Positions 9,779 through 46,233 of a DNA stretch of 63,376 nucleotides are shown piece by piece. The position numbers and the translations under genes were made by a program. The notes under the pieces were generated by a model. The model did no database searches. It saw only the letters and a list, made by a program, of their open reading frames with translations, and was not told where the DNA came from. How positions within the stretch are numbered: position 1 is the stretch's first letter; each line of letters starts with the position of its first letter. Where the stretch lies: assembly GCA_021811325.1 (NCBI GenBank), contig JAJZPE010000004.1:1-63376 (forward strand). Reading direction: 5' to 3'. This stretch comes from Bacillota bacterium. Lineage in GTDB: Bacteria > Bacillota > Sulfobacillia > JAJYWN01 > JAJZPE01.

Positions 9779-9781
9779 AGC

Positions 9782-10525: not shown

Positions 10526-10586
10526 AGCGTAACGCCGATGATCGGAGCCGCGCCAAGTTGCCTGAAAGGAGGAACCACCGAAAACC

Positions 10587-11066: not shown

Positions 11067-11102
11067 GCCCCCGTTCCGGGGGCCGGGAAAAAGGCCACGA
11101 CC

Positions 11103-12016: not shown

Positions 12017-12030
12017 AGGAGGGTCGCTGA

Positions 12031-15069: not shown

Positions 15070-15087
15070 AAAGGGGGTGTGACGCTA

Positions 15088-17315: not shown

Positions 17316-17329
17316 AGGAGGGTTGACCC

Positions 17330-17821: not shown

Positions 17822-17837
17822 AAGGGGGAGGAGACAG

Positions 17838-19481
17838 ATGGAGTTCTATCGTTCTCACGTCCTGGTCTGTGCCGGGACCAACTGCTCCCTCAAGGGCAAC
17901 CGAGCCGTCCGGGAAGCGCTGGTCCAGGAAGTCGCCCGCAGGAAGCTGGATAGAGAGGTCAAGGTCGTCGAGACCGGCTGCTTCGGTCTTTGCGAGCAAG
18001 GGCCGACGATCGTCATCTACCCCGAAGGGGTGCTCTACTGCCAGACCACGGTGGCCGACATCCCCGAAATCGTCGAGACCCACCTCCTCAAGGGGCGCCT
18101 GGTACAACGGTTGCTCTACAAGGAGCCCGTGGCCACCAAGCCCGTACAGACGGCGCCCGAGCTTGATTACTTCAAGAGGCAGGTCCGCGTGGTCCTCAGG
18201 AACTGCGGCCTGATCAACCCCGAGGTCGTCGAGGAGTACCTCGCCCAGGGCGGGTACCAGGCCCTCGGTAAGGCCCTGACGACGATGAGCCCCGACGAGG
18301 TCATCGCTACCATCAAGAACGCGAAGCTCCGCGGGCGTGGCGGGGCCGGCTTCCCGACCGGTCTCAAGTGGGAGTTCGCCCGCAAGGCGGCCGGGTCCCG
18401 GAAGTACATCGTCGGCAACGCCGACGAGGGCGAGCCGGGCACCTTCAAGGACCGCCTCATCCTCGAGGGCGACCCCCACAGCGTCCTGGAGGGCATGGCC
18501 ATCGCCGGCTACGCCGTCGGGGCCGACTACGGCTACATCTATATCCGTGGGGAGTACACCCTCTCCATCAAGCGCCTCAAGCTGGCCATCGAGCAGGCCC
18601 GCAAGCTCGGACTGCTGGGCCGGGACATCTTCGGCTCCGGCTTCGACTTCGACGTCGAGATCCGCACCGGCGCCGGAGCCTATGTCTGCGGCGAAGAGAC
18701 CGCCCTCTTCGAGTCGCTCGAAGGCGGCCGCGGCGAGCCGCGGGTCAAGCCGCCGTACCCGACCGACGCCGGCCTCTTCGGTCAACCGACCTCCATCAAC
18801 AACGTCGAGACCCTGGCCAACGTGGCCCCGATCATCAGCCGCGGGGCCGACTGGTTCCGCAGCCTCGGCACCGAACGGACCCCGGGGACCAAGGTCTTCA
18901 CCCTCACCGGCGACATCGTCAACGAGGGTCTCATCGAGGTGCCCATGGGGATCACCCTCCGCGAGGTCATCTACGACATCGGCGGCGGGACCAAGGACGG
19001 AAAGACCTTCAAGATGGCCCAGACCGGCGGGACCTCAGGCGGCTGCCTGCCCCAGGAACTCCTGGATGTGCCGATGGACTACGACAACCTGGCCGCGGCC
19101 GGATCGGCCCTCGGTTCTGGCGCGCTGCTGATCATGGACGATACCCACTGCATCGTCGACGTGGCCAAGTGCTTCGCCCGGTTCTTCGAACACGAGTCGT
19201 GCGGCAAGTGCGTCCCCTGCCGAGAGGGGACCATGCGCCTGTATCAACTGGTCGACAAGATCACCCGCGGGGAGGCCGACGAGGGGACCATCCCGCTCAT
19301 CACCGCCTTGGCCGAGATGATGTACAAGTCGCCCCTCTGCCCGCTCGGGCAGACGGCCCCCCTACCCATCATGTCCACCCTCAAATACTTCCGGGACGAG
19401 TACGACGCCCACATCAACGAAAAGCGCTGCCCGACCGGGACCTGCAAGGCCATCGCGGCCAGGGTCCAGGTCGCGGACTAG
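17838..19481 (+). CDS. hydB: HydB/NuoF-like subunit, module 2 (short form)
   Basis: LRGRGGAGFP, NADEGEPGTFKDR, CGEET, ESCGKCVPC; ends after CPTGTC with no C-terminal 2x[4Fe-4S] domain. Confidence 0.88.
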   Translation: MEFYRSHVLVCAGTNCSLKGNRAVREALVQEVARRKLDREVKVVETGCFGLCEQGPTIVIYPEGVLYCQTTVADIPEIVETHLLKGRLVQRLLYKEPVATKPVQTAPELDYFKRQVRVVLRNCGLINPEVVEEYLAQGGYQALGKALTTMSPDEVIATIKNAKLRGRGGAGFPTGLKWEFARKAAGSRKYIVGNADEGEPGTFKDRLILEGDPHSVLEGMAIAGYAVGADYGYIYIRGEYTLSIKRLKLAIEQARKLGLLGRDIFGSGFDFDVEIRTGAGAYVCGEETALFESLEGGRGEPRVKPPYPTDAGLFGQPTSINNVETLANVAPIISRGADWFRSLGTERTPGTKVFTLTGDIVNEGLIEVPMGITLREVIYDIGGGTKDGKTFKMAQTGGTSGGCLPQELLDVPMDYDNLAAAGSALGSGALLIMDDTHCIVDVAKCFARFFEHESCGKCVPCREGTMRLYQLVDKITRGEADEGTIPLITALAEMMYKSPLCPLGQTAPLPIMSTLKYFRDEYDAHINEKRCPTGTCKAIAARVQVAD

Positions 19482-19505
19482 CCGCCGGAAAGGGAGGGAA
19501 AAGTG

Positions 19506-21230
19506 ATGGACATGGTGACCTTGACCATTGACGGTCGTAAGGTCCAGGTGGCCAAAGGGGCCACCATCCTCGAGGCGGCGAAGGCCGCCGGCATCAGCAT
19601 CCCGACCCTGTGCCACCACCCCGACCAGGCGGTGAAGGCCGTCTGCCGGGTCTGCATCGTCGAGATCCAGGGACAGCGGACGTTCCAGGCCGCCTGCGCC
19701 TATCCCGCCGGGGAAGGGATGGTCGTCAAGACCAACACCCCGGCCGTGCGGGAGGCCCGCAAGCTCATCGTCGAACTGATCCTGTCCCGCCATCCCCAGG
19801 ATTGCCTGAAGTGCGAGAAGAACCTCCACTGCGAACTCCAGGAACTGGCCGAGAACCTCGGCATCCGCGACGTCCGCTTCGAGCAGGAGGTCAGGGAGTT
19901 CGCCGAGGACCATTCGACCCCGTCGATCGTTCGCGACCCGTCGAAGTGCATCCTCTGCCGCCGCTGCGTCTATACCTGTCACGAGGTCCAGGGCGTGGGG
20001 GTCCTCTACCCGATCAACCGGGGCAAGGACGCCATCGTCGCCCCGGCCATGGATAAGGACCTGGCCGACCTGGCCTGCGCCCTGTGCGGCCAGTGCACCC
20101 TGGTCTGCCCGACCGGGGCCATCACCGAGCGGGACGATACGGCCAAGGTCTGGGCGGCCATCGCCGACCCGCAGAAGCATGTGGTCGTGCAGACCGCTCC
20201 GGCCACCCGGGCCACCCTCGGCGAGGAGATGGGGCTGCCGGCCGGGACCCTGGTCACCGGGAAGCTCGTCGCGGCCTTGCGGCGGCTGGGTTTCGACCGG
20301 GTCTTCGACACCGACTTCACGGCCGACCTGACCATCCTCGAAGAGGGCTCCGAGCTCATCGAGCGGGTCAAGACAGGCGGCAAGCTGCCGCTCATCACGT
20401 CGTGCAGCCCGGGCTGGATCAAGTTCATCGAACACTACTACCCGGACCTTTTGCCGCACCTGTCGACCTGCAAGTCGCCGCAGCAGATGTTCGGGGCCCT
20501 GGCCAAGACCTACTACGCCGAGAAGGCCGGGATCAACCCCAAGGACATCTTCGTCGTCTCGATCATGCCGTGCACGGCCAAGAAGTTCGAGGGCCAGCGG
20601 CCGGAGATGAACGATAGCGGCTACCAGGACGTGGACGTCGTCCTCACCTCGCGCGAGCTCGGCCGGATGATGCGCCAGGCCGGCCTCGACTTCGAGCACC
20701 TGCCGGAGGAGGACTACGACTTGCCGCTGGGCATCTCCACCGGGGCCGCGGCCATCTTCGGGGCCACCGGCGGGGTCATGGAGGCCGCCCTCCGCACCGC
20801 TTACGAACTCCTGACCGGCAAGACCCTCGAGGACGTCGACTTCAAGGCCGTCCGCGGCATGGAGTCGATCAAGGAAGCCGCCGTCCCCGTGGACGGGCTG
20901 AACGTGAAGGTGGCCGTCGCCCACGGCCTCAACAACGCCCGCAAGCTCATGGATAAGCTGGCGGCGGGGCAGGCCGACTACCACTTCATCGAGATCATGT
21001 GCTGCCCCGGTGGCTGCATCGGCGGCGGCGGCCAACCCTTCGGGACCAACAACGCCATCCGCGGGAAGCGTATCGACGCCATCTACCGCGAGGACCAGCG
21101 GATGGAGTTCCGCAAGTCGCACGAGAACCCGGTCATCAAGCAACTCTACGCCGAGTACCTCGGGCGCCCATTGGGCGAAAAATCCCACCATCTCCTGCAC
21201 ACTCACTACACGCCACGGAGCAAATACTAA
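19506..21230 (+). CDS. hydA: [FeFe]-hydrogenase catalytic subunit HydA (group A3), module 2
   Basis: TSCSPGW, MPCTAKKFE, EIMCCPGGCIGGGGQP; same F-cluster set as module 1. Confidence 0.92.
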   Translation: MDMVTLTIDGRKVQVAKGATILEAAKAAGISIPTLCHHPDQAVKAVCRVCIVEIQGQRTFQAACAYPAGEGMVVKTNTPAVREARKLIVELILSRHPQDCLKCEKNLHCELQELAENLGIRDVRFEQEVREFAEDHSTPSIVRDPSKCILCRRCVYTCHEVQGVGVLYPINRGKDAIVAPAMDKDLADLACALCGQCTLVCPTGAITERDDTAKVWAAIADPQKHVVVQTAPATRATLGEEMGLPAGTLVTGKLVAALRRLGFDRVFDTDFTADLTILEEGSELIERVKTGGKLPLITSCSPGWIKFIEHYYPDLLPHLSTCKSPQQMFGALAKTYYAEKAGINPKDIFVVSIMPCTAKKFEGQRPEMNDSGYQDVDVVLTSRELGRMMRQAGLDFEHLPEEDYDLPLGISTGAAAIFGATGGVMEAALRTAYELLTGKTLEDVDFKAVRGMESIKEAAVPVDGLNVKVAVAHGLNNARKLMDKLAAGQADYHFIEIMCCPGGCIGGGGQPFGTNNAIRGKRIDAIYREDQRMEFRKSHENPVIKQLYAEYLGRPLGEKSHHLLHTHYTPRSKY

Positions 21231-21264
21231 AACGAGGGTCGTCCTCCCCCGGGGATGACGGAGC

Positions 21265-21297
21265 GGGGCCACGCCGCCTGCCGACGTGGCCCCCTTT
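21265..21297 (+). terminator. Hairpin after hydA2, possible weak terminator
   Basis: GGGGCCACG-N11-CGTGGCCCC followed by CTTT. Confidence 0.4.
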
Positions 21298-21340
21298 CCC
21301 CGGGGGTGAAGGGATGGCCGCGCCAGGGGGTGGACATGAA

Positions 21341-22813
<1,473 letters not shown>

Positions 22814-22816
22814 ACA

Positions 22817-24040
22817 ATGGAGGCCACACCGCGTGGCGACCGGCTCCACATCGCCATCTTCGGCCGCCGCAACGCCGGCAAGTCCAGCCTCATCAACGCC
22901 CTGTCCAACCAGGACGTGGCCATCGTCTCGCCGGAGCCGGGGACGACTACCGACCCCGTCTACCGGCCGATGGAGTTATTGCCCATCGGGCCGGTGGTCC
23001 TCATCGACACGGCGGGCATCGACGATCCCGGCGACCTGGGGCAGCTCCGCGTTCGAAGCACGCTCCGGGTGCTGAACAAGACCGACCTCGCCCTCCTCGT
23101 CATCGACGCCACCAGGGGCCCCGGGGAGGACGAGAAGAGCCTGGTCAACCGGCTCAAAGACCGCGCCATCCCGGTGATCGGCACGGTCAACAAGGTCGAC
23201 CTGGTCCGCCGGCCGGACGACTGGGCGGGCTGGGCCGATGAATTGGGGACCGAGATGGTCCCGGTGAGCGGGAGGACGGGCGAAGGGCTAGAGGACCTGA
23301 AGCGGCGGATGATCGACCGCGCCCCGAGCGACTGGGCCGCTCCGGCCATCGTCGGCGACCTTCTCGACCCGGGGGACCTGGTGGTCCTGGTCGTCCCGGT
23401 CGACCTGGCCGCCCCCAAGGGCCGGCTCATCCTGCCACAAGTCCAGACCCTGCGAGACGTCCTCGACCACGACGCCTACGCCGTCGTGGCCAAGGAGTAC
23501 GAGTTGCGGGAGGCCATCGAGAACCAGGTCACGCGGCCGAAGCTGGTGGTCACGGACTCACAGGCCTTCCTCAAGGTGGCGGCGGACACGCCCCCGGACG
23601 TCATGCTGACCTCCTTCTCCATCCTCTTTGCGAGGTACAAGGGGGACCTCGAGGAACTCGTGGCCGGGGCCAGGGCCGTCGACTCCCTGCGACCGGGCGA
23701 CCGCGTCCTCATCGCCGAGGCCTGTACCCACCACCGGATGGCCGACGACATCGGCCGGGTCAAGATTCCGCGCTGGCTACGCCAGCGGGTCGGAGGAGAC
23801 CTCGAATTCCACTGGGTCTCCGGGGTCAAGTACCCGGACGACCTGGAGTCGTACCGGCTGGTCGTCCATTGCGGGGCGTGCATGATCAACCGGAGGGAGA
23901 TGCTCTCGAGAATCGGGGAAGCGAAGGCCCGGGGAGTCCCCATCGTCAATTATGGTGTCCTCATCGCCTACCTCCTCGGGCTCCTCCCGCGTGCCCTTGA
24001 ACCTTTTCCGGCAGCCAGACAGGTGATCGTTGAGGGTTGA
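22817..24040 (+). CDS. hydF: [FeFe]-hydrogenase H-cluster maturation GTPase HydF
   Basis: GRRNAGKSS, DTAG, NKVD, EACTHH and HCGACM motifs. Confidence 0.92.
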   Translation: MEATPRGDRLHIAIFGRRNAGKSSLINALSNQDVAIVSPEPGTTTDPVYRPMELLPIGPVVLIDTAGIDDPGDLGQLRVRSTLRVLNKTDLALLVIDATRGPGEDEKSLVNRLKDRAIPVIGTVNKVDLVRRPDDWAGWADELGTEMVPVSGRTGEGLEDLKRRMIDRAPSDWAAPAIVGDLLDPGDLVVLVVPVDLAAPKGRLILPQVQTLRDVLDHDAYAVVAKEYELREAIENQVTRPKLVVTDSQAFLKVAADTPPDVMLTSFSILFARYKGDLEELVAGARAVDSLRPGDRVLIAEACTHHRMADDIGRVKIPRWLRQRVGGDLEFHWVSGVKYPDDLESYRLVVHCGACMINRREMLSRIGEAKARGVPIVNYGVLIAYLLGLLPRALEPFPAARQVIVEG

Positions 24041-32442: not shown

Positions 32443-32471
32443 TTGCCTAAAATGACAGTATCGCCTATAAT
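32443..32471 (+). promoter_or_regulatory. SigA promoter of the cytochrome operon
   Basis: TTGCCT-17bp-TATAAT followed by an AT-rich imperfect palindrome. Confidence 0.65.
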
Positions 32472-32674: not shown

Positions 32675-33427
32675 ATGAAGGATAACGTGGCGGCGGAGCG
32701 CGATGGCCGCAGGCCGCTATACCGGATCGCCGGGTATGCTGCCTTCACGATCGCCCTGAGTACGGCGCTCTGGATTGTCCTGGCCGGGTTGTGCTTCCTG
32801 ACGAGGGTGGGGCAAGACCCCAGCGGACTGGAGAAGGTCTTCCCGTTCATCAACGGATGGGGCCGGTTCAACCTGGTGGGCCTGGTGCTGCTGCAAGTTC
32901 CCGTCGTCATCGCCCTGACGACCATGACCATCGGACGCCAGCGGATGCTGGCCGTCCTGGGGGCTACTTTCGGCGGGCTGTACGTCCTGGCAGGGCTGTT
33001 CGCGGCGCTCCTCAAGACCGTCGTCTTCAGCGACATCGCCGGGCGTTTCCTCACCGTCAGTGGAGCTGAGCAGGCAATCGCCATCCGGAACCTGACCATC
33101 TGGGCCCAGGGACACCCATACGCCGTGACCTACGGTCTCGACGTCCCGGTCAACCTGCTGTTCGCGCTGATGGCCGTGTGCTTCGCCGGCGCCCTGACCA
33201 CGGCGACGGTGGCTGAGTCGGCTGTCAAGTGGCTCCTGGCCGGCGGGGCAGTCATCGGCCTCGTGGTCTCGGCCACGCAACTCGTAGGCTGGTCGGCGCT
33301 GCAGGGCCTGCTCCTGGTCGCCGCGGCCGCCACCATCGGCGCCTACCTGCTGCTCGCGCCGCTCTTCTTGGCCAAGGCCATGGGTCCGTCGGCCGAGGCC
33401 GAAACGGCCGTCCCGGTCCGCAGCTAG
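32675..33427 (+). CDS. Hypothetical integral membrane protein (about 7 TM, loosely DUF4386-like)
   Basis: AAGGAGGG RBS; 250 aa, highly hydrophobic; family call is tentative. Confidence 0.65.
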   Translation: MKDNVAAERDGRRPLYRIAGYAAFTIALSTALWIVLAGLCFLTRVGQDPSGLEKVFPFINGWGRFNLVGLVLLQVPVVIALTTMTIGRQRMLAVLGATFGGLYVLAGLFAALLKTVVFSDIAGRFLTVSGAEQAIAIRNLTIWAQGHPYAVTYGLDVPVNLLFALMAVCFAGALTTATVAESAVKWLLAGGAVIGLVVSATQLVGWSALQGLLLVAAAATIGAYLLLAPLFLAKAMGPSAEAETAVPVRS

Positions 33428-33519
33428 CCGTAGACCGCAATCAGCCGCAACCCTTAAACAGACCGAACGGACGCTACGGACGCTTGCGTTCGTCGCCAGC
33501 CAGTTGGGGAGGAGACACA

Positions 33520-34203
33520 ATGGAAGAGCGCGTAACCCGTCCGGCCCGGTCACCGCTGCTCCGGGTGGCGGACCGGCTGGATGAGCGGTTCCACGTCCGG
33601 GCCTTGTGGAAGAGCATCGCCGAACACGAGGTTCCGGCGCACGTCAACTGGATGTACTGCCTTGGTGGGATCACCTTCTTCCTCTTTGGCGTGCAGGGCA
33701 TCACCGGGATCATCATGGCGTTCTACTACAAGCCGCAGCCGGAGCTGGCCTACCAGAGCGTGCAGTTGATCGTCTACCAACTGCCGCTCGGCTGGCTCAT
33801 CCGGACCACTCACCGCTGGGCGGCTAACGGCATGGTCCTGATGGTCATCCTGCACATGTTGAGGGTCTTCTTCACCGGGTCGTACAAAAAGCCTCGCCAG
33901 TTCAACTGGGTCGTCGGTGTGTTCCTCTTCGTCATCACCTTCAGCTTCGCCATCACCGGGTTCCTCCTTCCGTGGGACCAGCAAGCCTACTGGGGGACGT
34001 CCGAACTCCTGAAGGTCGTCCAGGGGACCCCGCTCATCGGACCCGCCCTGGCCGGCATCCTTCGAGGCGGCGCGGCGGTGGGAGCGGTCACGTTGCGGCG
34101 GTTCTTCTCCCTGCACGTGCTGGCGCTCCCCGCCGCCATCGTCATCCTCCTGGGCGTCCATTTCGTGGTCGTGCGTCGCCAGGGCATTTCGGGGCCCCTA
34201 TAA
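33520..34203 (+). CDS. qcrB: Cytochrome b6-like (QcrB/PetB) subunit
   Basis: YCLGG (heme ci Cys), HRW.AN, LHM.RVF.TGSY.KPR..NW, TG.LLPWDQ.AYW, RFFSLH..LP..H, GISGPL. Confidence 0.9.
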   Translation: MEERVTRPARSPLLRVADRLDERFHVRALWKSIAEHEVPAHVNWMYCLGGITFFLFGVQGITGIIMAFYYKPQPELAYQSVQLIVYQLPLGWLIRTTHRWAANGMVLMVILHMLRVFFTGSYKKPRQFNWVVGVFLFVITFSFAITGFLLPWDQQAYWGTSELLKVVQGTPLIGPALAGILRGGAAVGAVTLRRFFSLHVLALPAAIVILLGVHFVVVRRQGISGPL

Positions 34204-34263
34204 TCCCTGGGCGCCGAGGACGCCGGCCACGAACCGCCATCCGTACGGAACGAGGTGAAACTC

Positions 34264-35112
34264 ATGGATAACCTGCCACTCGAGAAAGGCGCGCCCGAAA
34301 CGCACAAGAGCGGGCATCCATTCTTCCCCGACCACTTCTTCAAGGAACTCCTGGTGATCGTGATCGCCGCGACGGTCCTCATCGCCATCGCGGCCATCCG
34401 GCCGGCCCCGGGCTTCATCGGCCAGCCGGACCCGAGCGCCGCCGGGCCGCAGGTGAGCTTCCAACCCCAGTGGTACCTGTACTACTTCTACCTGGGGGCC
34501 AAGAAGCTCTCGCCCGGGACGATCACGACCTTGGCCCTCCTCCTCCTGGCCCTGTTCTTCGCGGTGCCCTTCATGGACCGCAACCCGCAGCGCAAACCGA
34601 CCAGGCGGCCGGTGGCCCTTTGTATCAGCGTCATCGCCATCGTCGCGGCCATCTACATGGCCGGCTCGGGGGTCAAGGCGACCCTCGCCGCGGGCAGCGT
34701 CAACGTCGAGGATATGAAGGGCGTGCACTGCTCATCGTGCCACTCCTACCTCAAGGGCATCAAGACCTTCGAGCCGACCCGCGAGGCCTGTCTGAAGTGC
34801 CACGCCGACCAGGACCCGGCCAAGGGGACCTTCTCGGCCAACGCCCCGATGAACTTAACCTGCCAGTCGTGCCACAAGCCGCACATCGGGAAGGACCCGG
34901 TCCCCTGCCTGTCTTGCCACGCCGACCAGACCAAGCAAGGGCTGCATGCCCGGCCGGCCCATCAGACCTGTCAGGTCTGCCACCAGCCGCATTCCTGGAA
35001 GGTCCCGGCCGACGCGGCGGTCAGGAATACCTGCCAGAGCTGCCACGCCGACAAGAAGGACCATATGAGCGGCATCCCCTGCACGACCTGCCACAAGTTC
35101 TCCCCCAAATAG
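34264..35112 (+). CDS. Cytochrome b6 subunit IV-like domain fused to a heptaheme cytochrome c
   Basis: PFFPDH..KE, PQWY, PF.DRNP.R; seven CxxCH motifs: CSSCH, CLKCH, CQSCH, CLSCH, CQVCH, CQSCH, CTTCH. Confidence 0.88.
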   Translation: MDNLPLEKGAPETHKSGHPFFPDHFFKELLVIVIAATVLIAIAAIRPAPGFIGQPDPSAAGPQVSFQPQWYLYYFYLGAKKLSPGTITTLALLLLALFFAVPFMDRNPQRKPTRRPVALCISVIAIVAAIYMAGSGVKATLAAGSVNVEDMKGVHCSSCHSYLKGIKTFEPTREACLKCHADQDPAKGTFSANAPMNLTCQSCHKPHIGKDPVPCLSCHADQTKQGLHARPAHQTCQVCHQPHSWKVPADAAVRNTCQSCHADKKDHMSGIPCTTCHKFSPK

Positions 35113-35163
35113 GGCGACGGCAGGTTCAGAAAACGAACACCAACGCCGGTCTTCCGCCGGGCC

Positions 35164-35190
35164 ACGCCGGCCTGCGAAGGCCGGCGTTTT
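35164..35190 (+). terminator. Rho-independent terminator
   Basis: ACGCCGGCCT-GCGA-AGGCCGGCGT followed by TTT. Confidence 0.75.
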
Positions 35191-35691
35191 CGGTCCGCCT
35201 GGCAGCTAGGCTGTCGCGGTCGAACGGTCAACCGACCTGTTGGGAGATCCCTGGCTGGGGACTGATTGCGAGCCGTTTCTTCTTCGTCCCTGGCCGGTTC
35301 ACGAAGTACGCCGAGATTCAATACGCCTCGCGGGTCGCTGGCCTGACCACCAGCCTCGGCATCTGGTTTCAGGCTCACGTCTGAGCGCCGACCGGTGAGG
35401 CCGTCATGGGCGGCGTTCTTGCTCCTGGAATACGCGGCCGGGAGGCCGTCGGTCCCAAATACGTCCCGCCCGGACATGAGCCGCGGGTCACGGCAAAACC
35501 CGGGCGGGTTCTTATTGCTCTTCTGGACGTTCGGAGGGAAGGGTTCAACTTCCTGGGGTATACGTTCTGGGCAAGACCGAACCACCGGTGGCGTGGAGGG
35601 GCGGACAACCGCCCCTTCTCTGTTTTCGGCCGCGCCCACGGCGCGCTGAGCCGGCCCGTCGGCGCCGGTCCAGCGGCCGTTGAAAGGCCGA

Positions 35692-35720
35692 GCATAAGAC
35701 CAGCGACGGCGGCCAAACTA
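35692..35720 (+). promoter_or_regulatory. SigG/SigF-like promoter upstream of cphB
   Basis: GCATA-17bp-CAAACTA; the -10 also reads GGCCAAACTA (SigF-like). Confidence 0.5.
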
Positions 35721-35740: not shown

Positions 35741-36616
35741 ATGAGCGACGGTGGGCGTTTGAACGACGGGGTACGCGGCAGCCTGGTGATCATCGGCGGG
35801 GCCGAGGACAAGCAGGGCCGCTGCGTCATCCTGCGCAAGTTCGTCGACCTCGCCGGCGGGGACGAGGCGGTCGTGGCCGTGGTCACCGCGGCCACCGAAG
35901 ACCCGGAGAAGGTCTCTCGGACCTACCGCGAGGTCTTCGCCCGGCTGGAGGTCAGGGAGACCAGTATCGTGCGAGTCGAGCGGCGGGAGGACGCCTTCGA
36001 GCGCGAGCCGCTGGAGCGCATCAAGCGGGCCACCGGCATCTTCTTCACCGGCGGCGACCAACTGCGGATAACCAGCGCGCTGGGCGGCACGCCCCTTTAC
36101 GACGCCCTCTACGACGCCTGTGGACGGGGCGTGGTCATCGCCGGCACGAGCGCCGGCGCCTCGGCCATGAGCGACACGATGATCGTCGGCGGGGAGGACG
36201 ACGGTGCCCCGAAGCGTTGCACGACGGCCATGGCGCCGGGGATGGGACTCCTCCGCCAGATCGTCGTCGACCAGCACTTTGCCCAGCGCGGGCGGATCGG
36301 ACGGTTGCTCTCGGCCCTCGCCCAGAACCCTTTCGTGTTGGGCGTGGGCGTCGACGAGGACACGGCGATCGTCGTCCGCCCCGGAGGCGTCTTTCGGGTC
36401 CTCGGCTCCCAGACGGTGACCGTCCTCGACGGAAAGGGGGTCTCCCACACCAACGCCTCGGAGTCGGTGCCCGACGAACCGCTGGCCCTCTTCGGAGTGA
36501 CCCTGCACATCCTCCCGGCCGGTCACGGCTATGACCTCGAGAGTCGGAAGCCCCTAGGGCCGGAAGCCTTTGAAGGGGAGGGACAGCCTGGAAAACCTGC
36601 ATATGCGGCTTTTTGA
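35741..36616 (+). CDS. cphB: Cyanophycinase
   Basis: IIGGAEDK, FFTGGDQLR, GTSAGA, DQHF.QRGR.GRL, GVDEDT. Confidence 0.93.
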   Translation: MSDGGRLNDGVRGSLVIIGGAEDKQGRCVILRKFVDLAGGDEAVVAVVTAATEDPEKVSRTYREVFARLEVRETSIVRVERREDAFEREPLERIKRATGIFFTGGDQLRITSALGGTPLYDALYDACGRGVVIAGTSAGASAMSDTMIVGGEDDGAPKRCTTAMAPGMGLLRQIVVDQHFAQRGRIGRLLSALAQNPFVLGVGVDEDTAIVVRPGGVFRVLGSQTVTVLDGKGVSHTNASESVPDEPLALFGVTLHILPAGHGYDLESRKPLGPEAFEGEGQPGKPAYAAF

Positions 36617-36712
36617 GCGGGGAAAATAGGCCCACGATGACGACCAGCTGGTCCCACGTCGGGACGATGAGGACCATCCGCACGACGATAAGACCCGTCA
36701 GGAGGGTCTCTG

Positions 36713-39400
36713 ATGCGAATAAAGGAACTCCGGGCCTTTGAGGGCCGGAACATCCACAGCCATTACCCGGCTGTCGAGATGCTCCTGGACCTCGGCGACC
36801 TAGACGGCCGCAAGACGCGAGACCTGGAGGACTTCAGCGAGCGGCTCTTGGCCGCTCTGCCGGGCTTGGCTCAGCACCACTGCTCGCTCGGGCGGCCCGG
36901 CGGTTTCATCGAAAGGGTACGGGAAGGCACCTACCTTGGCCACGTGGTCGAACACGTGGCCTTAGAGCTACAGACGCAGGCCGGTCTCGGGATGGTCTAC
37001 GGCAAGACGCGCCAGACCGAGCAGCCCGGGGTCTACCGCATCGTCTTCGAGTACCGGGCCAGGGAGGCCGGGCTGGAGGCGGCCAGGCGGGCCGTCGAGG
37101 TGACCTCGAGGTTGGTCGCCGGGGAGCGGCCCGACGTGGCCGCCGCCGTGACCGCCATCAAAGGGACGGCCGCCCGCACCGAACTCGGCCCGAGCACGGC
37201 GGCCATCGCCGAAGCCGCCCGGCGGCGGGGCATCCCGGTCACCCGGATCGGCCCGGAGAGTCTACTGCAGCTGGGCTACGGGTGCCGCCAGAAGCGGGTC
37301 AGGGCGACCATCACCGCCAACACGGGCTGCGTCGGCGTGGACATCGCCGGCGACAAGAGCCTGGCCAAACTCATCCTCGACCGGGCCGGCGTCCCGGTCC
37401 CACCGGGGACCGTGGTCAGCACGGAGGAGGAGGCCGCCGAGGCGGCCAGGGCCATCGCCGAGCCGACGGTGGTCAAGCCGCGCGACGGCAATCAGGGACG
37501 GGGCGTGAGCCTCAATCTGACCACCGAAGAGCAGGTCCGGGCGGCGTTCCGGGCGGCCCGCGCCCACGGCGAGGAGGTCATCGTCGAGCAGCACGTGACC
37601 GGCCGTCACTACCGGTTGCTCATCGTCGACGGCCGCCTCGAGGCCGCGGCCGAGCGGATGCCGGCGCGCGTCGTCGGCGATGGGGAGCACACCGTGGCCG
37701 AACTGATCGACCTCGTCAACGCCGACCCCAACCGCGGGGACGAGCACGAGAAGCCGTTGACCAAGATCAAGGTGGATGACGTCGTCGCCATCACGCTGGC
37801 CAAGCAAGGGCTATCGCTGGCCGCCCGGCCGCCCGCCGGGCAGGTCGTCAACCTCCGCGAGGGGGCCAACCTGAGCACGGGAGGCACGGCCCGGGATGTC
37901 ACCGATGAAGTCCACCCCGACTTCGCCGCCCTCGCCATGCGCGTGGCCGCCATCGTCGGCCTCGATGTGGCCGGCATCGACCTCGTGACGCCGGACATCG
38001 CCGCCCCCTTCGACCCCGAGAAGACGGCCGTCATCGAAGTCAACGCGGCCCCCGGCATCCGCATGCACCTCTACCCGAGCGAGGGCCGGCCGCGGCCGGT
38101 GGCCGAGGCCATCGTTCGCTCCATGTTCCCGCCCGGGGAAGACGGCCGCATCCCCGTCCTGGCGGTCACAGGGACGAACGGGAAGACGACCGTCTGCCGG
38201 CTCATCGCCCGCATCCTGCGGGAACAGGGCAAAAAAGTCGGCCTGGCGACCACCGACGGCATCTGGATTGACGGCCGCCGGGTCGTCGACGGTGACACCA
38301 GCGGCCCATGGAGCGCCGGGGTGGTCCTGAGCGACCCGGCGGTCGAGGCCGCCGTCCTGGAGACGGCCAGGGGCGGCATCATCCGCGGCGGGCTGGCCTT
38401 CGACCACTGCGACGTGGCCGTGGTGACGAACATCTCGTCCGACCACCTCGGGCAGGACGGCGTCGAGACCCTCGAGGACCTCGCCGATGTCAAGGCACTC
38501 CTGGTCGAAGCCGTGCCCAGGGATGGCTTCGCCGTCCTCAACGCCGACGACCATTACGTGGTCGAACTGGCCTACCGGACTGACGGGGAGATCATCTACT
38601 TCGGCCTCCAGGACGACAACCTGGTCGTCCGCCGCCACCTCAACGGGCGGGGGCGGGCCGTGCTCCTCAGGAAGGGGCAGGTCGTCCTGGCCCATGGCGG
38701 AAGCGAGGTCCGGTTGGGGAGCATCCGCGAATTCCCCTTGACCTTGGGCGGACGGGCCGTCCACAACGTCCAGAACCTGCTGGCCGCGACCGCCGCGGGT
38801 TGGGCCGCGGGGGCCGACCCGGGGGTCCTGGTCCAGGCCCTCCGGGCCTTCAGCCACACTCCGGACTGCAACCCCGGGCGTTTCAACCTCTACGAAGTCG
38901 GCGACCTCCGTCTGGTCATCGACTACGGTCACAACCCGGCCGCTTTCCAGAACACCCTGCGGGCGGTCAGGGCCCTGTCTCCCGGCCGGCTCATCGGGGT
39001 CATCGCCGCCCCGGGCGACCGCCGCGACGAAAACCTCCGGGAACTCGGGCGGGTGGCCGGGCGTGGTTTCACCCGGCTGTTCATCAAGGAGGACCACGAC
39101 AAACGCGGCCGGCGTCCCGGCGAGGTGGCCGAGTTGCTCCTCCGAGGGGCCATCGAGGGCGGGGCGCCGCCTGAAGGCGTGACCGTCATCCTGGACGAGG
39201 AGGAAGCCGTCCTGACGGCCTGCCGCGGGACTCAGGGGGGCGACGTGGTCGTTGTCTTCTACGAAAAATACGAGCCCATTGCGGCCCTCGCCCGAAGAGT
39301 GGCGGCCGAGTGGGAGGAGCGGCGGTCGGCGGCACCCAGACCGCTGGTCGTGGCCGGGGTGCTGGTCGAGAACAGCTTCACGGGCGGGCCCGGTGAATAG
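36713..39400 (+). CDS. cphA: Cyanophycin synthetase
   Basis: GTYLGHVVEH, LGPST, QLGYG, ATP-grasp KPRDGNQGRGV, NLSTGG, EVNAAPG.RMH, Mur-ligase VTGTNGKTT and DYGHNP. Confidence 0.95.
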   Translation: MRIKELRAFEGRNIHSHYPAVEMLLDLGDLDGRKTRDLEDFSERLLAALPGLAQHHCSLGRPGGFIERVREGTYLGHVVEHVALELQTQAGLGMVYGKTRQTEQPGVYRIVFEYRAREAGLEAARRAVEVTSRLVAGERPDVAAAVTAIKGTAARTELGPSTAAIAEAARRRGIPVTRIGPESLLQLGYGCRQKRVRATITANTGCVGVDIAGDKSLAKLILDRAGVPVPPGTVVSTEEEAAEAARAIAEPTVVKPRDGNQGRGVSLNLTTEEQVRAAFRAARAHGEEVIVEQHVTGRHYRLLIVDGRLEAAAERMPARVVGDGEHTVAELIDLVNADPNRGDEHEKPLTKIKVDDVVAITLAKQGLSLAARPPAGQVVNLREGANLSTGGTARDVTDEVHPDFAALAMRVAAIVGLDVAGIDLVTPDIAAPFDPEKTAVIEVNAAPGIRMHLYPSEGRPRPVAEAIVRSMFPPGEDGRIPVLAVTGTNGKTTVCRLIARILREQGKKVGLATTDGIWIDGRRVVDGDTSGPWSAGVVLSDPAVEAAVLETARGGIIRGGLAFDHCDVAVVTNISSDHLGQDGVETLEDLADVKALLVEAVPRDGFAVLNADDHYVVELAYRTDGEIIYFGLQDDNLVVRRHLNGRGRAVLLRKGQVVLAHGGSEVRLGSIREFPLTLGGRAVHNVQNLLAATAAGWAAGADPGVLVQALRAFSHTPDCNPGRFNLYEVGDLRLVIDYGHNPAAFQNTLRAVRALSPGRLIGVIAAPGDRRDENLRELGRVAGRGFTRLFIKEDHDKRGRRPGEVAELLLRGAIEGGAPPEGVTVILDEEEAVLTACRGTQGGDVVVVFYEKYEPIAALARRVAAEWEERRSAAPRPLVVAGVLVENSFTGGPGE

Positions 39401-42951: not shown

Positions 42952-43605
42952 TTACATCCCGGGGACGTGGAGCCAATCCCGGAAGAGGAACTGGAGACGG
43001 CCAATAAACAGAGAGATGCGGGCCATGACGGTGTTGCCGAAAGCGGCGCCCAGGCCGACCATGATCACCCAGCGGCCGAACCAGGCGGGCCAACCGAGCA
43101 GCTTGTTCTCCCTCTTCACGGTGAAAAAGAAGTACGAGAGCGCGGTCAGCAGGAAGACCCAAAACAGGATGTTGTTCAGAGTCTGGGTGAAGATGATGCC
43201 GCCGCCCTTGGCGGAAACGGCGAACTTCGACCCATAGCTATCGACGATCTGCTTCATGAGGACCGCCGGTTGGAAGGCCAGGGTGTAGCCGACGCCGTAG
43301 CCGACCCAGAAGGACATCGGGTAGCGGGCCAGCCAGGACATTTTCGGGAAGTACTGGAAGTAGATCAGCAGACCGATGACGATCGGGACGATATAAATGA
43401 ACTTCCCGTCCTTCAGGATGTCGGTCTGGATCGTTGGCTTGATGTACTGGTCCCAGTTGCCGACGACCCCGAAGCCGGTGGCCAACCCGACGAAGAGATG
43501 CTCGGCCGCGCGGAACACGGGGTTCTCGGCCCAGAGGTAGCTCAGGCAGGCGAATGTCGCGATCGCCCCGACCCAAGCAGCTGTAGGAGTCCAAGTCCAA
43601 GTCAC
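42952..43605 (-). CDS. Uncharacterised membrane protein (gene 4 of DUF6754 cluster)
   Basis: Multi-TM; S.L..ENP.FR.AEH.FVG and FG.TVMAR.SL..GR motifs; GGAGGTG RBS. Confidence 0.75.
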   Translation of the reverse strand: MTWTWTPTAAWVGAIATFACLSYLWAENPVFRAAEHLFVGLATGFGVVGNWDQYIKPTIQTDILKDGKFIYIVPIVIGLLIYFQYFPKMSWLARYPMSFWVGYGVGYTLAFQPAVLMKQIVDSYGSKFAVSAKGGGIIFTQTLNNILFWVFLLTALSYFFFTVKRENKLLGWPAWFGRWVIMVGLGAAFGNTVMARISLFIGRLQFLFRDWLHVPGM

Positions 43606-43653
43606 GCTTTGTCACCTCCCGACATGAGCTGCGGAAGACACTCCGCGCGGTGG

Positions 43654-44475
43654 TCAGGCCTTCTTGCGAAGGACATAGCCGACGTTACCGACGATGATCA
43701 GCAGGATGATCAGGGCATGACCGAGGGACTGCGCGTCCATACCCTTGATGGCGCTCCCGGGGGCCCTGGTCAGAAGTTCATACTCGGCCGCGCCGCGCAT
43801 CCCCGACAGAATCCCCTTGTACTGCCCGGACTTGACGTACGGCATGGCGCCAGGGGCGGAGACGGCGGTCACGCCGACGCTCATCGGGACCTTCTTCGGC
43901 TCGGAGACATACTGGAGGTAGTCCGCGGTGCCGGGGCTGCCGGTGCTCAAGTCGAAGATAAAGGCCACGCTCGAAGAGTCGAGCTTCTTGACCCGCTCCA
44001 TCAGCGGCAACTGGGACAGCGGAGTGCCGTTGACGTCCACGCCGGCCGCGGCGCCCCACAGGTCGTCGGTCATCTGGCGGAGGGTGACCGGGTTGTTCGG
44101 CTTCCAGCCGAGGTTGACCCAGTCCACACCTTCCTTGGCCCCGACTTCCTTGGAGACCTTCTCGGTCCAGTTCTTGGACATCTGGACGCCGTCCTGCCAC
44201 ATGGCGTAGATGACGACCTTGACGCCCTTCTTGAGGGCTTGCCGGAAGATGGCGATGGCCATCGGGTCGAGCTCCGGCGCGCTGGACGGGCCGTAGTCGG
44301 CGCCGATCCAGAGGACGTCACCGGGCTTGAGGGCGTCGACCGCGTTGAAGCCGGTCTCGCTCTCGGTGCTGGTGCTCAAGGGCAACCCCAGGGGCTTGAC
44401 CAGCGGAACGGCGATGGCGATGGCGACCAGCAGGTAGATGACCCGCTTGTCAAGGCTCATAAGCCGGTCCCACAT
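43654..44475 (-). CDS. Uncharacterised membrane-anchored protein (gene 3 of DUF6754 cluster)
   Basis: N- and C-terminal TMs around a soluble domain; DYGPSS.PEL.P, GM.GAAEYE, MDAQS..H motifs. Confidence 0.75.
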   Translation of the reverse strand: MWDRLMSLDKRVIYLLVAIAIAVPLVKPLGLPLSTSTESETGFNAVDALKPGDVLWIGADYGPSSAPELDPMAIAIFRQALKKGVKVVIYAMWQDGVQMSKNWTEKVSKEVGAKEGVDWVNLGWKPNNPVTLRQMTDDLWGAAAGVDVNGTPLSQLPLMERVKKLDSSSVAFIFDLSTGSPGTADYLQYVSEPKKVPMSVGVTAVSAPGAMPYVKSGQYKGILSGMRGAAEYELLTRAPGSAIKGMDAQSLGHALIILLIIVGNVGYVLRKKA

Positions 44476-44531
44476 TCTTCGTTACACCTCCTTGCTGTGG
44501 GCTAAGTGACACGAGTAACGGGAACCGGCCA

Positions 44532-45167
44532 TCACTTCATCCCTGCCCCGCCGACCCCACCGAGGTGGGCCCGCTCGATACCGAGCAAGATGCGGAGCAC
44601 GGTGACGAAGGATCCTAGGTAAGCGCCGATGAGGACGGCGCGCATGGCGGCCGTGTTCGGGAAGCGCATGATCCAGTTGGCCCAGTCCGGGAACCCCTTC
44701 CAGATAGCCTCGCCGATAGGGGCCCGGCCGAGCATGACGATGGCCGCCGAGACCAGGAGGAGGGTCGCCTCCACGGTCCGGATCCGGAACGCCCGGTAGG
44801 CCGCGGTGGCGATGTAGAACGCCAGGAGCGAGAAGATGGTCGAGTCAAGCTGTACCAGGAGGGCGTTGTATAGCCACCGAAAGTTCTGGCCCTTGTAGCC
44901 CTCGACGACGCCGAGGGCGGTGTAACCCCACAAGGCGACGAGCAGCAGGAGGCTGAAGATGTACCCGGCCTTGCGCCGCCTGATGTGGTTGACATGGATC
45001 CTGGTCAGGTTGACGGCCCCGATCAGGAGGGCGAAGGCTTGGCTGATGGTCTGCCACTTGTCCATGGCGTTGATCAGCTGCCATTTCTCGCCGATGGCGA
45101 AGTCATGGCCGAAGATGACAAACAGCCCGGTCAAAATGGTCACGAGCAAGGGCAATTCCTTGCGCAC
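44532..45167 (-). CDS. Uncharacterised membrane protein (gene 2 of DUF6754 cluster)
   Basis: Multi-TM; FSLLAFYI..AAYRAFR.R..EA..LL and P.TAA.R motifs. Confidence 0.75.
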   Translation of the reverse strand: MRKELPLLVTILTGLFVIFGHDFAIGEKWQLINAMDKWQTISQAFALLIGAVNLTRIHVNHIRRRKAGYIFSLLLLVALWGYTALGVVEGYKGQNFRWLYNALLVQLDSTIFSLLAFYIATAAYRAFRIRTVEATLLLVSAAIVMLGRAPIGEAIWKGFPDWANWIMRFPNTAAMRAVLIGAYLGSFVTVLRILLGIERAHLGGVGGAGMK

Positions 45168-45207
45168 TCACGTACACCCCCTTTTCCCTTTGGTGTGCTC
45201 CCCGGGC

Positions 45208-45996
45208 TCACTTCAGAATCCAACTGGTGAGCGGGTTCTTCTTCGGGTCGGCGATGACGTTGGTGATCACGGTCCCGACGATAATCGTCAGGAAGACGAG
45301 GATCTTGAACCAGTCCTCGCCGACGACGGTCCCGAGCAACACCGGGTTCTTGGAAATGTACGCGCTGGCGGCATAGATCTCCTCGCCGATCAGCGTGTAG
45401 TCGCAGGCCGCGACGAAGAAGGGGAGCTGGGCGGTGGACGTTGTGCCGGCGATCTGGATGGCGCCGATCTGGGCGCCGGCCTCGGCCAGGATCAGGGACT
45501 CGGCGTAGAAGTAGCCGATCATGATGTTGGCCGCCGGCTTCTCGCGGGCGAACATACCCAGAAGGGCCGAGGTGTAACCGAACTGGAAGCCCGACAGGTA
45601 CCGGACGTCATCCGGGTTGTAGGCGTCCGGACGACCGGCTTCGAGGTAAGCCTGCTTGATGATTTCCTCGTTCACCGAGTGCACCAGGTAGTTCCGGTTG
45701 GTCTGAATCAACCGGCAGTCGTACTTGGCGCACAGCTGAGCGATGTAGCCCAGGGTATTGAAGAAGGCGAAGGTCTCTGGAGCACTGATACCACCGAGGC
45801 CGGGGGTCGCGTGCACCGGCCGACCCATCTCAGTGGCGCGGCCGATCGACTCTTCCAAGGCCTCGAGGCCGGCGATCTTGCGGATCTCGGGGATCTTCAT
45901 CCCGGCTCTGGCCCGGGTGATGAGGACATAGGTGACGATTCCTATCGCGACGATGAACCAGAAGTCGACAACCATGCCCTTGGTCCAGATTGTCAC
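45208..45996 (-). CDS. DUF6754-family membrane protein
   Basis: IR.IAGL.A.EE.IGRATEMGRP, AESLILAE.G..GAIQIAGT, QLPFF..CDY.LIGEE.YAA; GTG start chosen after AGGAGGTG. Confidence 0.75.
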   Translation of the reverse strand: MTIWTKGMVVDFWFIVAIGIVTYVLITRARAGMKIPEIRKIAGLEALEESIGRATEMGRPVHATPGLGGISAPETFAFFNTLGYIAQLCAKYDCRLIQTNRNYLVHSVNEEIIKQAYLEAGRPDAYNPDDVRYLSGFQFGYTSALLGMFAREKPAANIMIGYFYAESLILAEAGAQIGAIQIAGTTSTAQLPFFVAACDYTLIGEEIYAASAYISKNPVLLGTVVGEDWFKILVFLTIIVGTVITNVIADPKKNPLTSWILK

Positions 45997-46233
45997 TGCT
46001 TTTTTCACCTCCTTCCCCTGCCCAATGATTTAAGCAACGCTGTATTTTTTCATTTCGGTGAAGGTTCCCCGAATCCTTCTGGGGGCCTAAAGTTCTTGGT
46101 CCTAAAGACCCCCTGGTCGGCCGCGTGGGCGTGGCCGGGCGGTCGGGCAAAGCTGGCCGGGCAGGAACGCACCGGGGCGCGTTGAATAACTGCCGGGGCG
46201 CAGGCAACTAACTAATGGTAAGGGGTTGAGGGT

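What the first reader, a model, noticed from the sequence alone, without database searches (positions are those of the whole stretch)
32675..35112. Rieske-less cytochrome b6/subunit-IV complex with a fused 7-heme cytochrome c
Seen: promoter, 7-TM protein, cytochrome b6 (four His ligands and the heme-ci Cys), subunit IV with seven CxxCH motifs, then a terminator. No Rieske 2Fe-2S gene lies in the unit, and the Qo motif is PQWY instead of PEWY/PDWY. CxxCHxPH pairs resemble DmsE/MtrA-type multiheme wires, and three TMs put the hemes on the outer face. Known: Q-cycle complexes need a Rieske protein and normally an acidic Qo residue, and Bacillus QcrC carries one heme. Inference: a non-Q-cycle quinol:multiheme conduit in a Gram-positive anaerobe, possibly for extracellular or interspecies electron transfer, analogous in concept to Geobacter CbcL.
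Basis: partly seen in the sequence, partly recalled or inferred. Interest (0 to 1): 0.82.

Follow-up and report, generated by a model that had tools for sequence, protein, structure and literature searches.

The report
Cytochrome b6 complex with fused heptaheme
An uncultured spore-forming anaerobe carries a rare three-gene operon for a photosynthesis-type cytochrome b6/subunit IV quinol oxidase whose subunit IV ends in seven c-type hemes; no Rieske iron-sulfur gene lies nearby and the quinol-oxidation pocket is remodelled, so it may be a natural Rieske-free offshoot of the bc complexes.

Summary
On the + strand, a promoter-like site and a terminator hairpin bound three genes: a 250-aa membrane protein (6 TM helices plus one amphipathic helix, not 7 TM), a 227-aa cytochrome b6 with four His ligands and the CxGG Cys, and a 282-aa subunit IV fused to seven CxxCH motifs. 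The third gene starts at ATG 34264, and PQWY aligns to PEWY.

A Rieske HMM that recovers positive controls finds nothing in the 63-kb window, in 10 kb further upstream, or in three orthologous loci. Every non-cyanobacterial relative sampled has an adjacent Rieske gene.

New evidence: the clade also replaces the otherwise invariant Qo tyrosine (Y147 in Rhodobacter numbering; Y in 82/82 relatives) with Phe, and puts Glu or Gln on the cd1 helix.

The fusion is very rare: three 50%-identity clusters among 1.84 billion representatives.

The "non-Q-cycle" reading is not established:
- The rest of the genome could not be searched, and cyanobacteria encode Rieske in trans.
- PQWY occurs next to a Rieske gene in one outgroup.
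- All b-heme and heme-ci ligands are kept.

CbcL is not homologous. Geobacter ExtOPQ/Cbc6 and the anammox Rieske/b complexes are closer relatives. I rate it a new variant of a known kind.

The parts
32443..32471 (+). sigma-70-like promoter candidate (TTGCCT-17-TATAAT) in an AT-rich stretch upstream of the operon
   Evidence: 10/12 matches; 2 sites found against 0.5 expected in shuffles; sequence
32675..33427 (+). gene 1: 250-aa integral membrane protein, six hydrophobic TM segments plus one amphipathic helix; no known family and no conserved cofactor ligands
   Evidence: No Pfam or NCBIfam hit. Hydropathy; AF2 secondary structure (low pLDDT). Only six homolog clusters, all in this lineage. A 32%-identical homolog sits directly upstream of cyt b in L010; none in L008/L009. 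dN/dS 0.18 against L007.
33520..34203 (+). gene 2: cytochrome b6 (227 aa) with four b-heme His (H98, H112, H199, H214), heme-ci Cys in YCLGG (C47), and the clade-specific changes F148 (normally Tyr), A144 and E162
   Evidence: dN/dS 0.09
34264..34700 (+). gene 3, N-terminal part: subunit IV homolog with three TM helices and the Qo motif PQWY (residues 68-71)
34701..35112 (+). gene 3, C-terminal part: compact heptaheme c domain (seven CxxCH in about 130 residues; two CxxCHxPH; five further invariant His and two invariant Met as candidate distal ligands), predicted on the outer face
   Evidence: topology
35142..35195 (+). GC-rich hairpin followed by UUUU: intrinsic-terminator-like end of the operon
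   Evidence: MFE -45.2 kcal/mol, z -2.74. It was not flagged by the stricter T-run rule.

Best explanation
The operon encodes a membrane quinol:cytochrome c oxidoreductase derived from a b6f/Bacillus-type bc complex.

Composition and topology:
- Cytochrome b6 (hemes bL and bH plus covalently bound heme ci) and subunit IV form the quinol pocket on the outer (p) side.
- Subunit IV continues, about 19 residues after its third TM helix, into a compact seven-heme c-type chain on the outside of the cytoplasmic membrane.

Most likely mechanism (inferred):
- Menaquinol is oxidised at a remodelled Qo pocket. The usual Tyr/Glu proton-handling pair is Phe/Gln here, and a polar Glu or Gln sits on the cd1 helix.
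- One electron enters the fused heme chain directly or through its membrane-proximal hemes, with no Rieske protein encoded with the complex.
- The heme chain then passes the electron to an unidentified outer-face acceptor.
- Because all ligands of bL, bH and heme ci are conserved, the second electron probably still crosses the membrane to the n-side quinone site. The enzyme is therefore more likely a Rieske-independent, Q-cycle-like device than a simple non-electrogenic conduit.
- The upstream 6-TM protein is probably a lineage-specific accessory subunit without cofactors.

Shown: gene content, motifs, homology, topology by homology, rarity, purifying selection, absence of Rieske within about 74 kb and in orthologous loci, and the clade-specific Qo substitutions.

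Inferred: independence from a Rieske protein, the electron path, the quinone species, the acceptor and the direction of flow.
For: - Domain identities.
- Heme ligands and the CxGG Cys are invariant.
- The seven CxxCH and PQWY are invariant in the family.
- Subunit IV topology and the short, K/R-rich TM2-TM3 loop place the C-terminal domain outside.
- A Rieske HMM built from 28 neighbours of b6 genes recovers the controls (L012 5e-30, L014 3.5e-44). It finds nothing (E>2) in the window, L007, L008 or L010, and nothing at E 1e-3 or better in those loci in the survey of all loci. No Rieske family appears among the precomputed Pfam hits of the genes called in the 10 kb upstream.
- In the survey, every non-cyanobacterial b6 locus with enough flank has a Rieske gene adjacent.
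- Clade-specific changes: cyt b Y148F (Tyr in 82/82 others), V/I162 to E or Q, G144A; subunit IV E/D to Q or P (67/68 others are acidic).
- The operon and its synteny are conserved down to 62% cyt b identity, and dN/dS is 0.09-0.34.
Against: - Only about 74 kb of one MAG and 17-21 kb of three relatives were visible, so a Rieske gene elsewhere is not excluded.
- Cyanobacterial petBD operons in the same survey also lack an adjacent Rieske gene, and Rieske genes are not always next to cyt b (PMC5600118).
- PQWY occurs together with a Rieske gene in L086.
- Position 162 is Gln rather than Glu in two of seven clade representatives, so there is no universal relocated carboxylate.
- The AF2 models were unusable (pLDDT 42 and 44), so no geometry links heme 1 to the Qo pocket.
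- No menaquinone, cytochrome c maturation or acceptor genes are in view.
Confidence: 0.5

Rival explanations
1. It is an ordinary Rieske/cytochrome b6 complex whose Rieske subunit is encoded elsewhere in the genome, as in cyanobacteria. The heptaheme simply replaces cytochrome f or the QcrC heme as acceptor of the Rieske cluster, and a normal Q cycle runs.
For: - All b-heme and heme-ci ligands are intact.
- The fused c domain sits where QcrC carries its heme.
- Homologous b6-plus-multiheme systems with Rieske exist: L012, L014 and L032, Geobacter ExtOPQ (PMC5877670) and the anammox complexes (PMC12954380).
- Cyanobacterial petBD loci lack an adjacent Rieske gene.
- PQWY coexists with Rieske in L086.
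Against: - Four clade members spanning 61-100% cyt b identity all lack an adjacent Rieske gene, while every non-cyanobacterial relative sampled has one.
- The clade uniquely loses the Qo Tyr that is invariant in 82/82 relatives, including the cyanobacterial ones, as well as the acidic Qo residue.
Confidence: 0.3
2. The Qo pocket no longer oxidises quinol. The complex is a transmembrane wire between the n-side quinone/heme-ci site and the outer heme chain through bH and bL. It would either export electrons from menaquinol (or a cytoplasmic donor at heme ci) at the expense of membrane potential, or import electrons from outside to reduce menaquinone, in the manner of Qrc or CbcBA-type enzymes.
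For: - Two of the three conserved Qo proton-handling residues are lost (PMC12199298), while the n-side features (CxGG Cys, bH His, C-terminal RRQGISGP) are fully kept.
- The host has low-potential, hydrogen-centred metabolism.
- Low-potential cyt b plus multiheme quinone oxidoreductases are known in Geobacter (10.1101/2021.04.15.440034).
Against: - W and Y of the Qo motif and the LPW(D)Q and cd1 framework are conserved, and a polar Glu or Gln is introduced into the pocket. This suggests the pocket is still used.
- No experimental precedent exists for this mode in the bc family.
Confidence: 0.15
3. It is a decaying or chance arrangement: pseudogenes or a non-functional remnant of a qcr operon that lost qcrA.
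For: The fusion is extremely rare.
Against: - The reading frames are intact, dN/dS is 0.09-0.34, and all heme motifs are invariant.
- The same operon sits in the same synteny in relatives down to 62% identity, and in a different context in L010.
Confidence: 0.01

Closest known systems
Bacillus/Geobacillus menaquinol:cytochrome c reductase QcrABC (b6c complex)
   Same: - Firmicute host.
- Split cytochrome b6 with the heme-ci Cys.
- Subunit IV carries a C-terminal c-type cytochrome domain on the outer face. The QcrC-like architecture is seen in P0163 and in loci L056, L065 and L087.
   Different: - QcrC has one class I heme; here there are seven hemes of the c3/MtrA type.
- qcrA (Rieske) is adjacent in QcrABC-type loci but absent here.
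- The Qo motif is PDWY there and PQWY here.
- The Qo Tyr is replaced by Phe.
- An extra 6-TM protein is encoded in the operon.
Geobacter sulfurreducens ExtMNOPQS / Cbc6 (Rieske ExtO, b6-like ExtP, membrane protein ExtQ, multiheme ExtM/N/S)
   Same: A homologous b6-type cytochrome b (NF040969 cytb_ExtP, 247 bits) is combined with multiheme c-type cytochromes instead of cytochrome f or c1 (PMC5877670).
   Different: - ExtO is a Rieske protein, and the multihemes are separate proteins.
- The score is below the equivalog cut-off (290).
- The host is a Gram-negative with a porin and periplasm.
- Its function is likewise unproven.
Anammox Rieske/cyt b complexes Kustd1480-85 and Kuste4569-74
   Same: b6-like four-helix cytochrome b, a subunit IV-like protein and a hexa- or octaheme cytochrome c in place of cytochrome f (PMC12954380).
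   Different: They contain Rieske proteins and NAD(P) oxidoreductase subunits, their subunit IV has five TM helices, and the multiheme is not fused to subunit IV.
Geobacter CbcL / CbcBA and ANME Mco (cyt b plus multiheme quinol oxidoreductases)
   Same: The concept is the same: a membrane b-type cytochrome coupled or fused to a 7-11-heme c-type cytochrome to move electrons from the quinol pool outward (10.1101/2021.04.15.440034; PMC9012536).
   Different: Their b-type modules are hydrogenase- or formate-dehydrogenase-anchor-like (CbcB [NiFe]-hydrogenase-related, CbcL His pattern like formate dehydrogenase, Mco VhtC-like), not bc-family cytochrome b. They have no subunit IV, no Qo/Qi architecture and no heme ci. 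They are analogous, not homologous.
MtrA/DmsE decaheme cytochromes
   Same: Local similarity of the heme domain: 6r2q_A E 3.9e-8 over about 100 residues and TIGR03508 E 7e-6. CxxCHxPH spacing is shared.
   Different: Seven hemes rather than ten. The score of 25.7 bits is far below the 192-bit cut-off. The domain is membrane-anchored through subunit IV rather than inserted in an outer-membrane porin.

Membership tests
Rieske/cytochrome b (bc1/b6f-type) complexes | Cytochrome b with two His pairs on helices B and D ligating hemes bL and bH | tested here: met
   H98/H112 and H199/H214 align to the b6 ligands and are invariant in 18 relatives. PF00033 E 2e-53.
Rieske/cytochrome b (bc1/b6f-type) complexes | Rieske 2Fe-2S subunit | tested here: inconclusive
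   There is no hit to a Rieske HMM (positive controls 5e-30 and 3.5e-44) in the 63-kb window, L007, L008 or L010, and no Rieske family among the genes called in the 10 kb upstream. The rest of the genomes could not be searched.
Rieske/cytochrome b (bc1/b6f-type) complexes | Qo motif PEWY/PDWY with an acidic second residue | tested here: not met
   PQWY aligns to PEWY. Q, Q, Q and P occur in the four clade members, against E or D in 67 of 68 relatives.
Rieske/cytochrome b (bc1/b6f-type) complexes | Conserved Qo tyrosine at the end of helix C (TGY/MGY; Y147 in Rhodobacter numbering) | tested here: not met
   Phe in all seven clade representatives and four loci; Tyr in 82/82 other b6 sequences. 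The numbering is mapped from the GY(V/S)LPW(G/D)Q motif using my own knowledge of the Rhodobacter sequence.
b6f/Firmicute-type split complexes | Four-helix b6 with the CxGG heme-ci motif, plus a separate three-helix subunit IV | tested here: met
   YCLGG at C47. PF00032 and TIGR01156 match the subunit IV part of gene 3 (about residues 16-141), and three TM segments are predicted. Heme attachment itself is not testable here.
Bacillus QcrC | Subunit IV fused to a single class I cytochrome c domain, in an operon with qcrA and qcrB | tested here: not met
   There are seven CxxCH of the c3/paired-CXXCH type and no qcrA.
Geobacter ExtP (NF040969 equivalog) | Score above the curated cut-off, and an operon with Rieske ExtO | tested here: not met
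   247 bits against a cut-off of 290, and no Rieske gene.
DmsE/MtrA decaheme family (TIGR03508) | Ten CxxCH motifs and a score above the cut-off | tested here: not met
   Seven CxxCH; 25.7 bits against a cut-off of 192.
Geobacter CbcL-type quinol oxidoreductases | Hydrogenase/formate-dehydrogenase-anchor-type diheme cytochrome b fused to a multiheme c | tested here: not met
   The b-type protein here is PF00033/PF13631 (the bc family). No hydrogenase- or formate-dehydrogenase-anchor-type cytochrome b family appeared at E 0.1 or better. The multiheme is fused to subunit IV, not to cyt b.

The most novel reading that the evidence does not exclude
This could be a truly Rieske-free descendant of the bc complexes. 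In it a c-type heme of the fused heptaheme, rather than a mobile 2Fe-2S head, would be the primary acceptor at a Qo pocket that has lost both the conserved Tyr and the acidic residue, while the bL-bH-ci chain still works. That would be a natural test of whether quinol bifurcation and Q-cycling need a Rieske protein at all.
Probability: 0.4. Interest if true: 0.8.

Novelty: new variant of a known kind. Interest (0 to 1): 0.62.

Why it matters
The Rieske protein and the Tyr/Glu pair at the Qo site are central to every current model of quinol bifurcation in bc1/b6f complexes.

This lineage keeps the whole low-potential chain, but it has no Rieske gene with the operon, has changed both Qo residues, and has welded a heme wire onto subunit IV. 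It would therefore show what parts of the Q-cycle machinery are dispensable. It would also add a bc-derived module to the short list of quinol:multiheme oxidoreductases used by anaerobes.

If instead a Rieske gene is found elsewhere, the operon is still an unusual QcrC variant with a heptaheme acceptor, but the mechanistic interest falls.

Tried and rejected
1. AlphaFold2 on subunit IV-heptaheme (6-sequence alignment) and on the membrane protein (7 sequences) gave pLDDT 42 and 44. I used only the secondary structure and ran no fold search, because matches would be meaningless.
2. My first regex for Rieske boxes missed L012. The source's gene calls had made L014 look Rieske-free. An HMM built from 28 Rieske neighbours corrected both, so L014 is not a Rieske-less precedent.
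3. My recollection that Geobacter Cbc3 (CbcVWX) is the b6-type complex was wrong. CbcV is described as an Fe-S subunit (PMC10608574). The b6-type one is ExtP/Cbc6 (PMC5877670).
4. A relocated Qo carboxylate at cyt b E162 is only partly tenable, because two of seven clade representatives have Gln there.
5. The metagenome scan with the cyt b alignment returned mostly cyanobacterial petB and nothing above 55% identity. It was useful as a control set but added no new clade members.
6. Literature searches for Rieske-less bc complexes and for the MAG accessions found no description of this operon.
7. The roughly 500-bp non-coding stretch after the operon has no Rfam family, no repeats and no remnant of the protease gene found at that place in L008.
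8. A look-up with the GTG 34255 start found nothing.
Full report
**What is there**

The window is a 63-kb piece of a high-GC (about 67%) uncultured Bacillota genome. Identical contigs occur in several metagenome assemblies, including GCA_027327795.1 contig DAHVYF010000063.

Three + strand genes lie between ksgA plus a PF04308 gene and the cyanophycinase/cyanophycin synthetase genes:
- 32675-33427: a 250-aa membrane protein.
- 33520-34203: a 227-aa cytochrome b6.
- 34264-35112: a 282-aa subunit IV-heptaheme fusion.

Signals around the genes:
- Each gene has a Shine-Dalgarno-like sequence.
- A TTGCCT-17-TATAAT site lies at 32443-32471.
- A strong hairpin with a short U run lies at 35142-35195.
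- The exact-match look-up fails for the GTG 34255 start and succeeds for ATG 34264, which fixes the start of gene 3.

**Checking the motifs**

Cytochrome b6:
- It is PF00033 at 2e-53.
- It matches solved cyanobacterial b6 chains at 3e-66. The heme-ci Cys (YCLGG) and the four His are in register.
- These residues are invariant across 18 relatives.

Gene 3:
- Residues 13-141 align to b6f subunit IV, and PQWY lies exactly on PEWY.
- Hydropathy and the AF2 secondary structure give three TM helices. A short Arg/Lys-rich TM2-TM3 loop places the C-terminal domain outside, as in b6f and QcrC.
- The seven CxxCH are the only such motifs in any sizeable ORF of the window and are invariant in the family. 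So are five extra His and two Met that could serve as distal ligands.
- Seven hemes in about 130 residues is unusually dense.
- The best solved match of the heme domain is 6r2q_A (E 4e-8). I recognise this from memory as MtrA, although the file labels it otherwise. The DmsE family model scores far below its cut-off. This is resemblance, not membership.

Gene 1:
- It has six hydrophobic segments and one amphipathic helix, not seven TM helices.
- It matches no family.
- Its single conserved His is Ala in the distant homolog in L010, so it probably binds no cofactor.

**Rarity and conservation**

- The fusion protein has only six homolog clusters of at least 69% identity among 5.8 billion proteins.
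- It falls in three clusters at the 50% level among 1.84 billion representatives searched exhaustively with a profile.
- One locus was found among 185,579 species genomes.

The three subclades are:
- The window and L007: PQWY, 7 hemes, membrane protein present.
- L008/L009: TQWY, 7 hemes, same metG-ksgA...cyanophycin synteny, no membrane protein.
- L010: PPWY, 5 hemes, different neighbourhood, membrane-protein homolog present.

dN/dS against L007 is 0.18, 0.09 and 0.34 for the three genes. They are real, selected genes inherited vertically in a small lineage.

**The Rieske question**

No Rieske motif occurs in six-frame translations of the window.

A Rieske HMM built from 28 ORFs adjacent to b6 genes in fetched loci recovers the positive controls. 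One of these, L012, had been missed by my regex. Another, L014, had been left uncalled by the source's gene caller. The HMM finds nothing in the window, L007, L008 or L010. The 10 kb upstream of the window holds housekeeping genes only. The contig extends less than 1 kb past the window's downstream end, with two small genes that have no Pfam hit.

In the control set of 80 metagenome loci plus L012 and L014:
- Every non-cyanobacterial b6 locus with enough flank has a Rieske gene directly upstream of cyt b or directly downstream of subunit IV.
- The only other Rieske-free operons are cyanobacterial petBD.

That second point is the main caveat. Rieske in trans is a known arrangement, and the literature notes that Rieske genes are not always next to cyt b (PMC5600118). 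I could not search the rest of these genomes.

**New evidence on the Qo pocket**

I compared the four clade loci with 82 diverse b6 and 68 subunit IV sequences. The clade-specific changes are few and sit in the quinol-oxidation pocket:
- The Tyr of the TGY motif at the end of helix C is Phe in all clade members and Tyr in 82/82 others.
- The V/I five residues after the LPWDQ motif, on the cd1 helix, is Glu here.
- G144 is Ala.
- The acidic residue of PEWY/PDWY (67/68 others) is Gln or Pro.

Across seven cluster representatives, the Phe is universal and the cd1 position is Glu in five and Gln in two.

By the conserved GY(V/S)LPW(G/D)Q motif, the Tyr corresponds to Y147 and the cd1 position to V161 of Rhodobacter cytochrome b. 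This mapping rests on my own knowledge of that sequence.

This clade has therefore changed two of those three residues and lacks a cis Rieske gene. That pattern is not expected for a canonical complex whose Rieske gene has merely moved.

Against over-reading PQWY alone:
- L086 has PQWY with a Rieske gene, Tyr and Val.
- Natural non-acidic motifs are known (PMC4122944).

**How it most likely works**

Shown by homology: a b6/subunit IV quinol module with intact bL, bH and heme-ci sites, and a heptaheme on the outer face.

Inferred:
- Menaquinol is oxidised at the remodelled p-side pocket, and an electron enters the fused heme chain without a Rieske shuttle.
- Because the low-potential chain and n-side site are fully conserved, the second electron probably still crosses the membrane.

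Rivals:
- An ordinary complex with Rieske in trans (0.3).
- A transmembrane wire using the n-side site, with a disabled Qo pocket, running in either direction (0.15).

The acceptor is unknown. The window has no other c-type cytochrome and no maturation or quinone genes. A seven-heme domain is short relative to a Gram-positive wall, so extracellular or interspecies transfer remains a guess. The genomic context fits a strict anaerobe with hydrogen-centred metabolism: a group-3-like [NiFe] hydrogenase, a sensory-type and two bifurcating-type [FeFe] hydrogenases, HydF and sporulation genes.

**Comparison with known systems**

- CbcL, CbcBA and ANME Mco are analogous, but they use different b-type modules (10.1101/2021.04.15.440034; PMC9012536).
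- The homologous precedents for b6 plus multiheme cytochromes are Geobacter ExtO/P/Q with ExtM/N/S (PMC5877670) and the anammox Kustd1480-85 and Kuste4569-74 complexes (PMC12954380). All of these include a Rieske protein.
- The precedent for fusing a c domain to subunit IV is Bacillus-type QcrC (one heme). In L070 and L075, subunit IV is fused to seven tandem class I domains, with Rieske present.
- A Rieske-free branch of the cyt b family, fused to a different Fe-S protein, has been noted but not characterised (PMC4122944).
- I found no description of this operon.

**Verdict**

Rieske independence and the absence of a Q cycle are unproven, and the named analogue was not the closest one.

It is a new variant of a known kind. 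Interest is moderate to high, and hinges on one genome-wide search that these tools could not run.

Noticed in passing
window 3251-24040: A dense hydrogen-metabolism region. It holds a four-gene group-3-like [NiFe] hydrogenase (3251-7153) and a HydS-like sensory [FeFe] hydrogenase with PHP, DRTGG and HATPase partners (7505-12016). Two NuoE/NuoF/HydA bifurcating-type [FeFe] hydrogenases follow (10566-16827 and 17327-21230). In the first, the 1012-aa NuoF-like subunit is fused to a GltD/NfnB-like pyridine-nucleotide oxidoreductase. An aspartase/fumarase-class lyase (20957-22813) and HydF (22814-24040) complete the region.
   Followed up: partly
window 35200-35700: About 500 bp of non-coding DNA between the operon terminator and the cyanophycinase gene is absent from the ortholog L007, where the gap is about 120 bp. 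It has no Rfam family, no repeats and no remnant of the Trypsin_2 gene that sits there in L008. A second terminator-like hairpin lies at 35595-35618.
   Followed up: partly
window 35741-39400: Cyanophycinase and cyanophycin synthetase lie directly downstream of the cytochrome operon. They keep that position in L007 and L008, inside the otherwise classic Firmicute metG-ksgA-ispE-purR-spoVG block.
   Followed up: no
window 42952-46029 (- strand): Four consecutive minus-strand genes interrupt the plus-strand housekeeping run. Three have no Pfam match and one is DUF6754.
   Followed up: no
L014 5517-6683: The Rieske domain and cytochrome b6 lie in one stop-free frame, which may be a Rieske-b6 fusion or overlapping genes. 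The source's gene caller had left the Rieske part uncalled, making the locus look Rieske-free. A 17-heme cytochrome follows subunit IV.
   Followed up: partly
L086 (cyt b at 7001-7663): This is the only outgroup subunit IV with PQWY. It has an adjacent Rieske gene and keeps the Qo Tyr and the cd1 Val, so PQWY alone does not mark Rieske-free complexes.
   Followed up: partly
L070 6697-8817 and L075 7691-9790: Subunit IV (PKPEWY/PRPEWY) is fused to seven tandem class I cytochrome c domains (about 700 aa), downstream of Rieske and b6. This is a different way of attaching seven hemes to subunit IV.
   Followed up: partly
PDB chain 6r2q_A: The molecule name returned for this 333-residue multiheme chain is 'Cystathionine beta-synthase'. 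The alignment is clearly to a CxxCH-rich cytochrome, and I recall this entry as the Shewanella baltica MtrCAB complex, chain MtrA. The label looks wrong.
   Followed up: no
L010 8887-9396: In the pentaheme (PPWY) relative, a 169-aa protein without any Pfam hit follows the fusion gene. By eye it has a flavodoxin-like alternating pattern. It could be an extra, cytoplasmic partner in that subclade.
   Followed up: no
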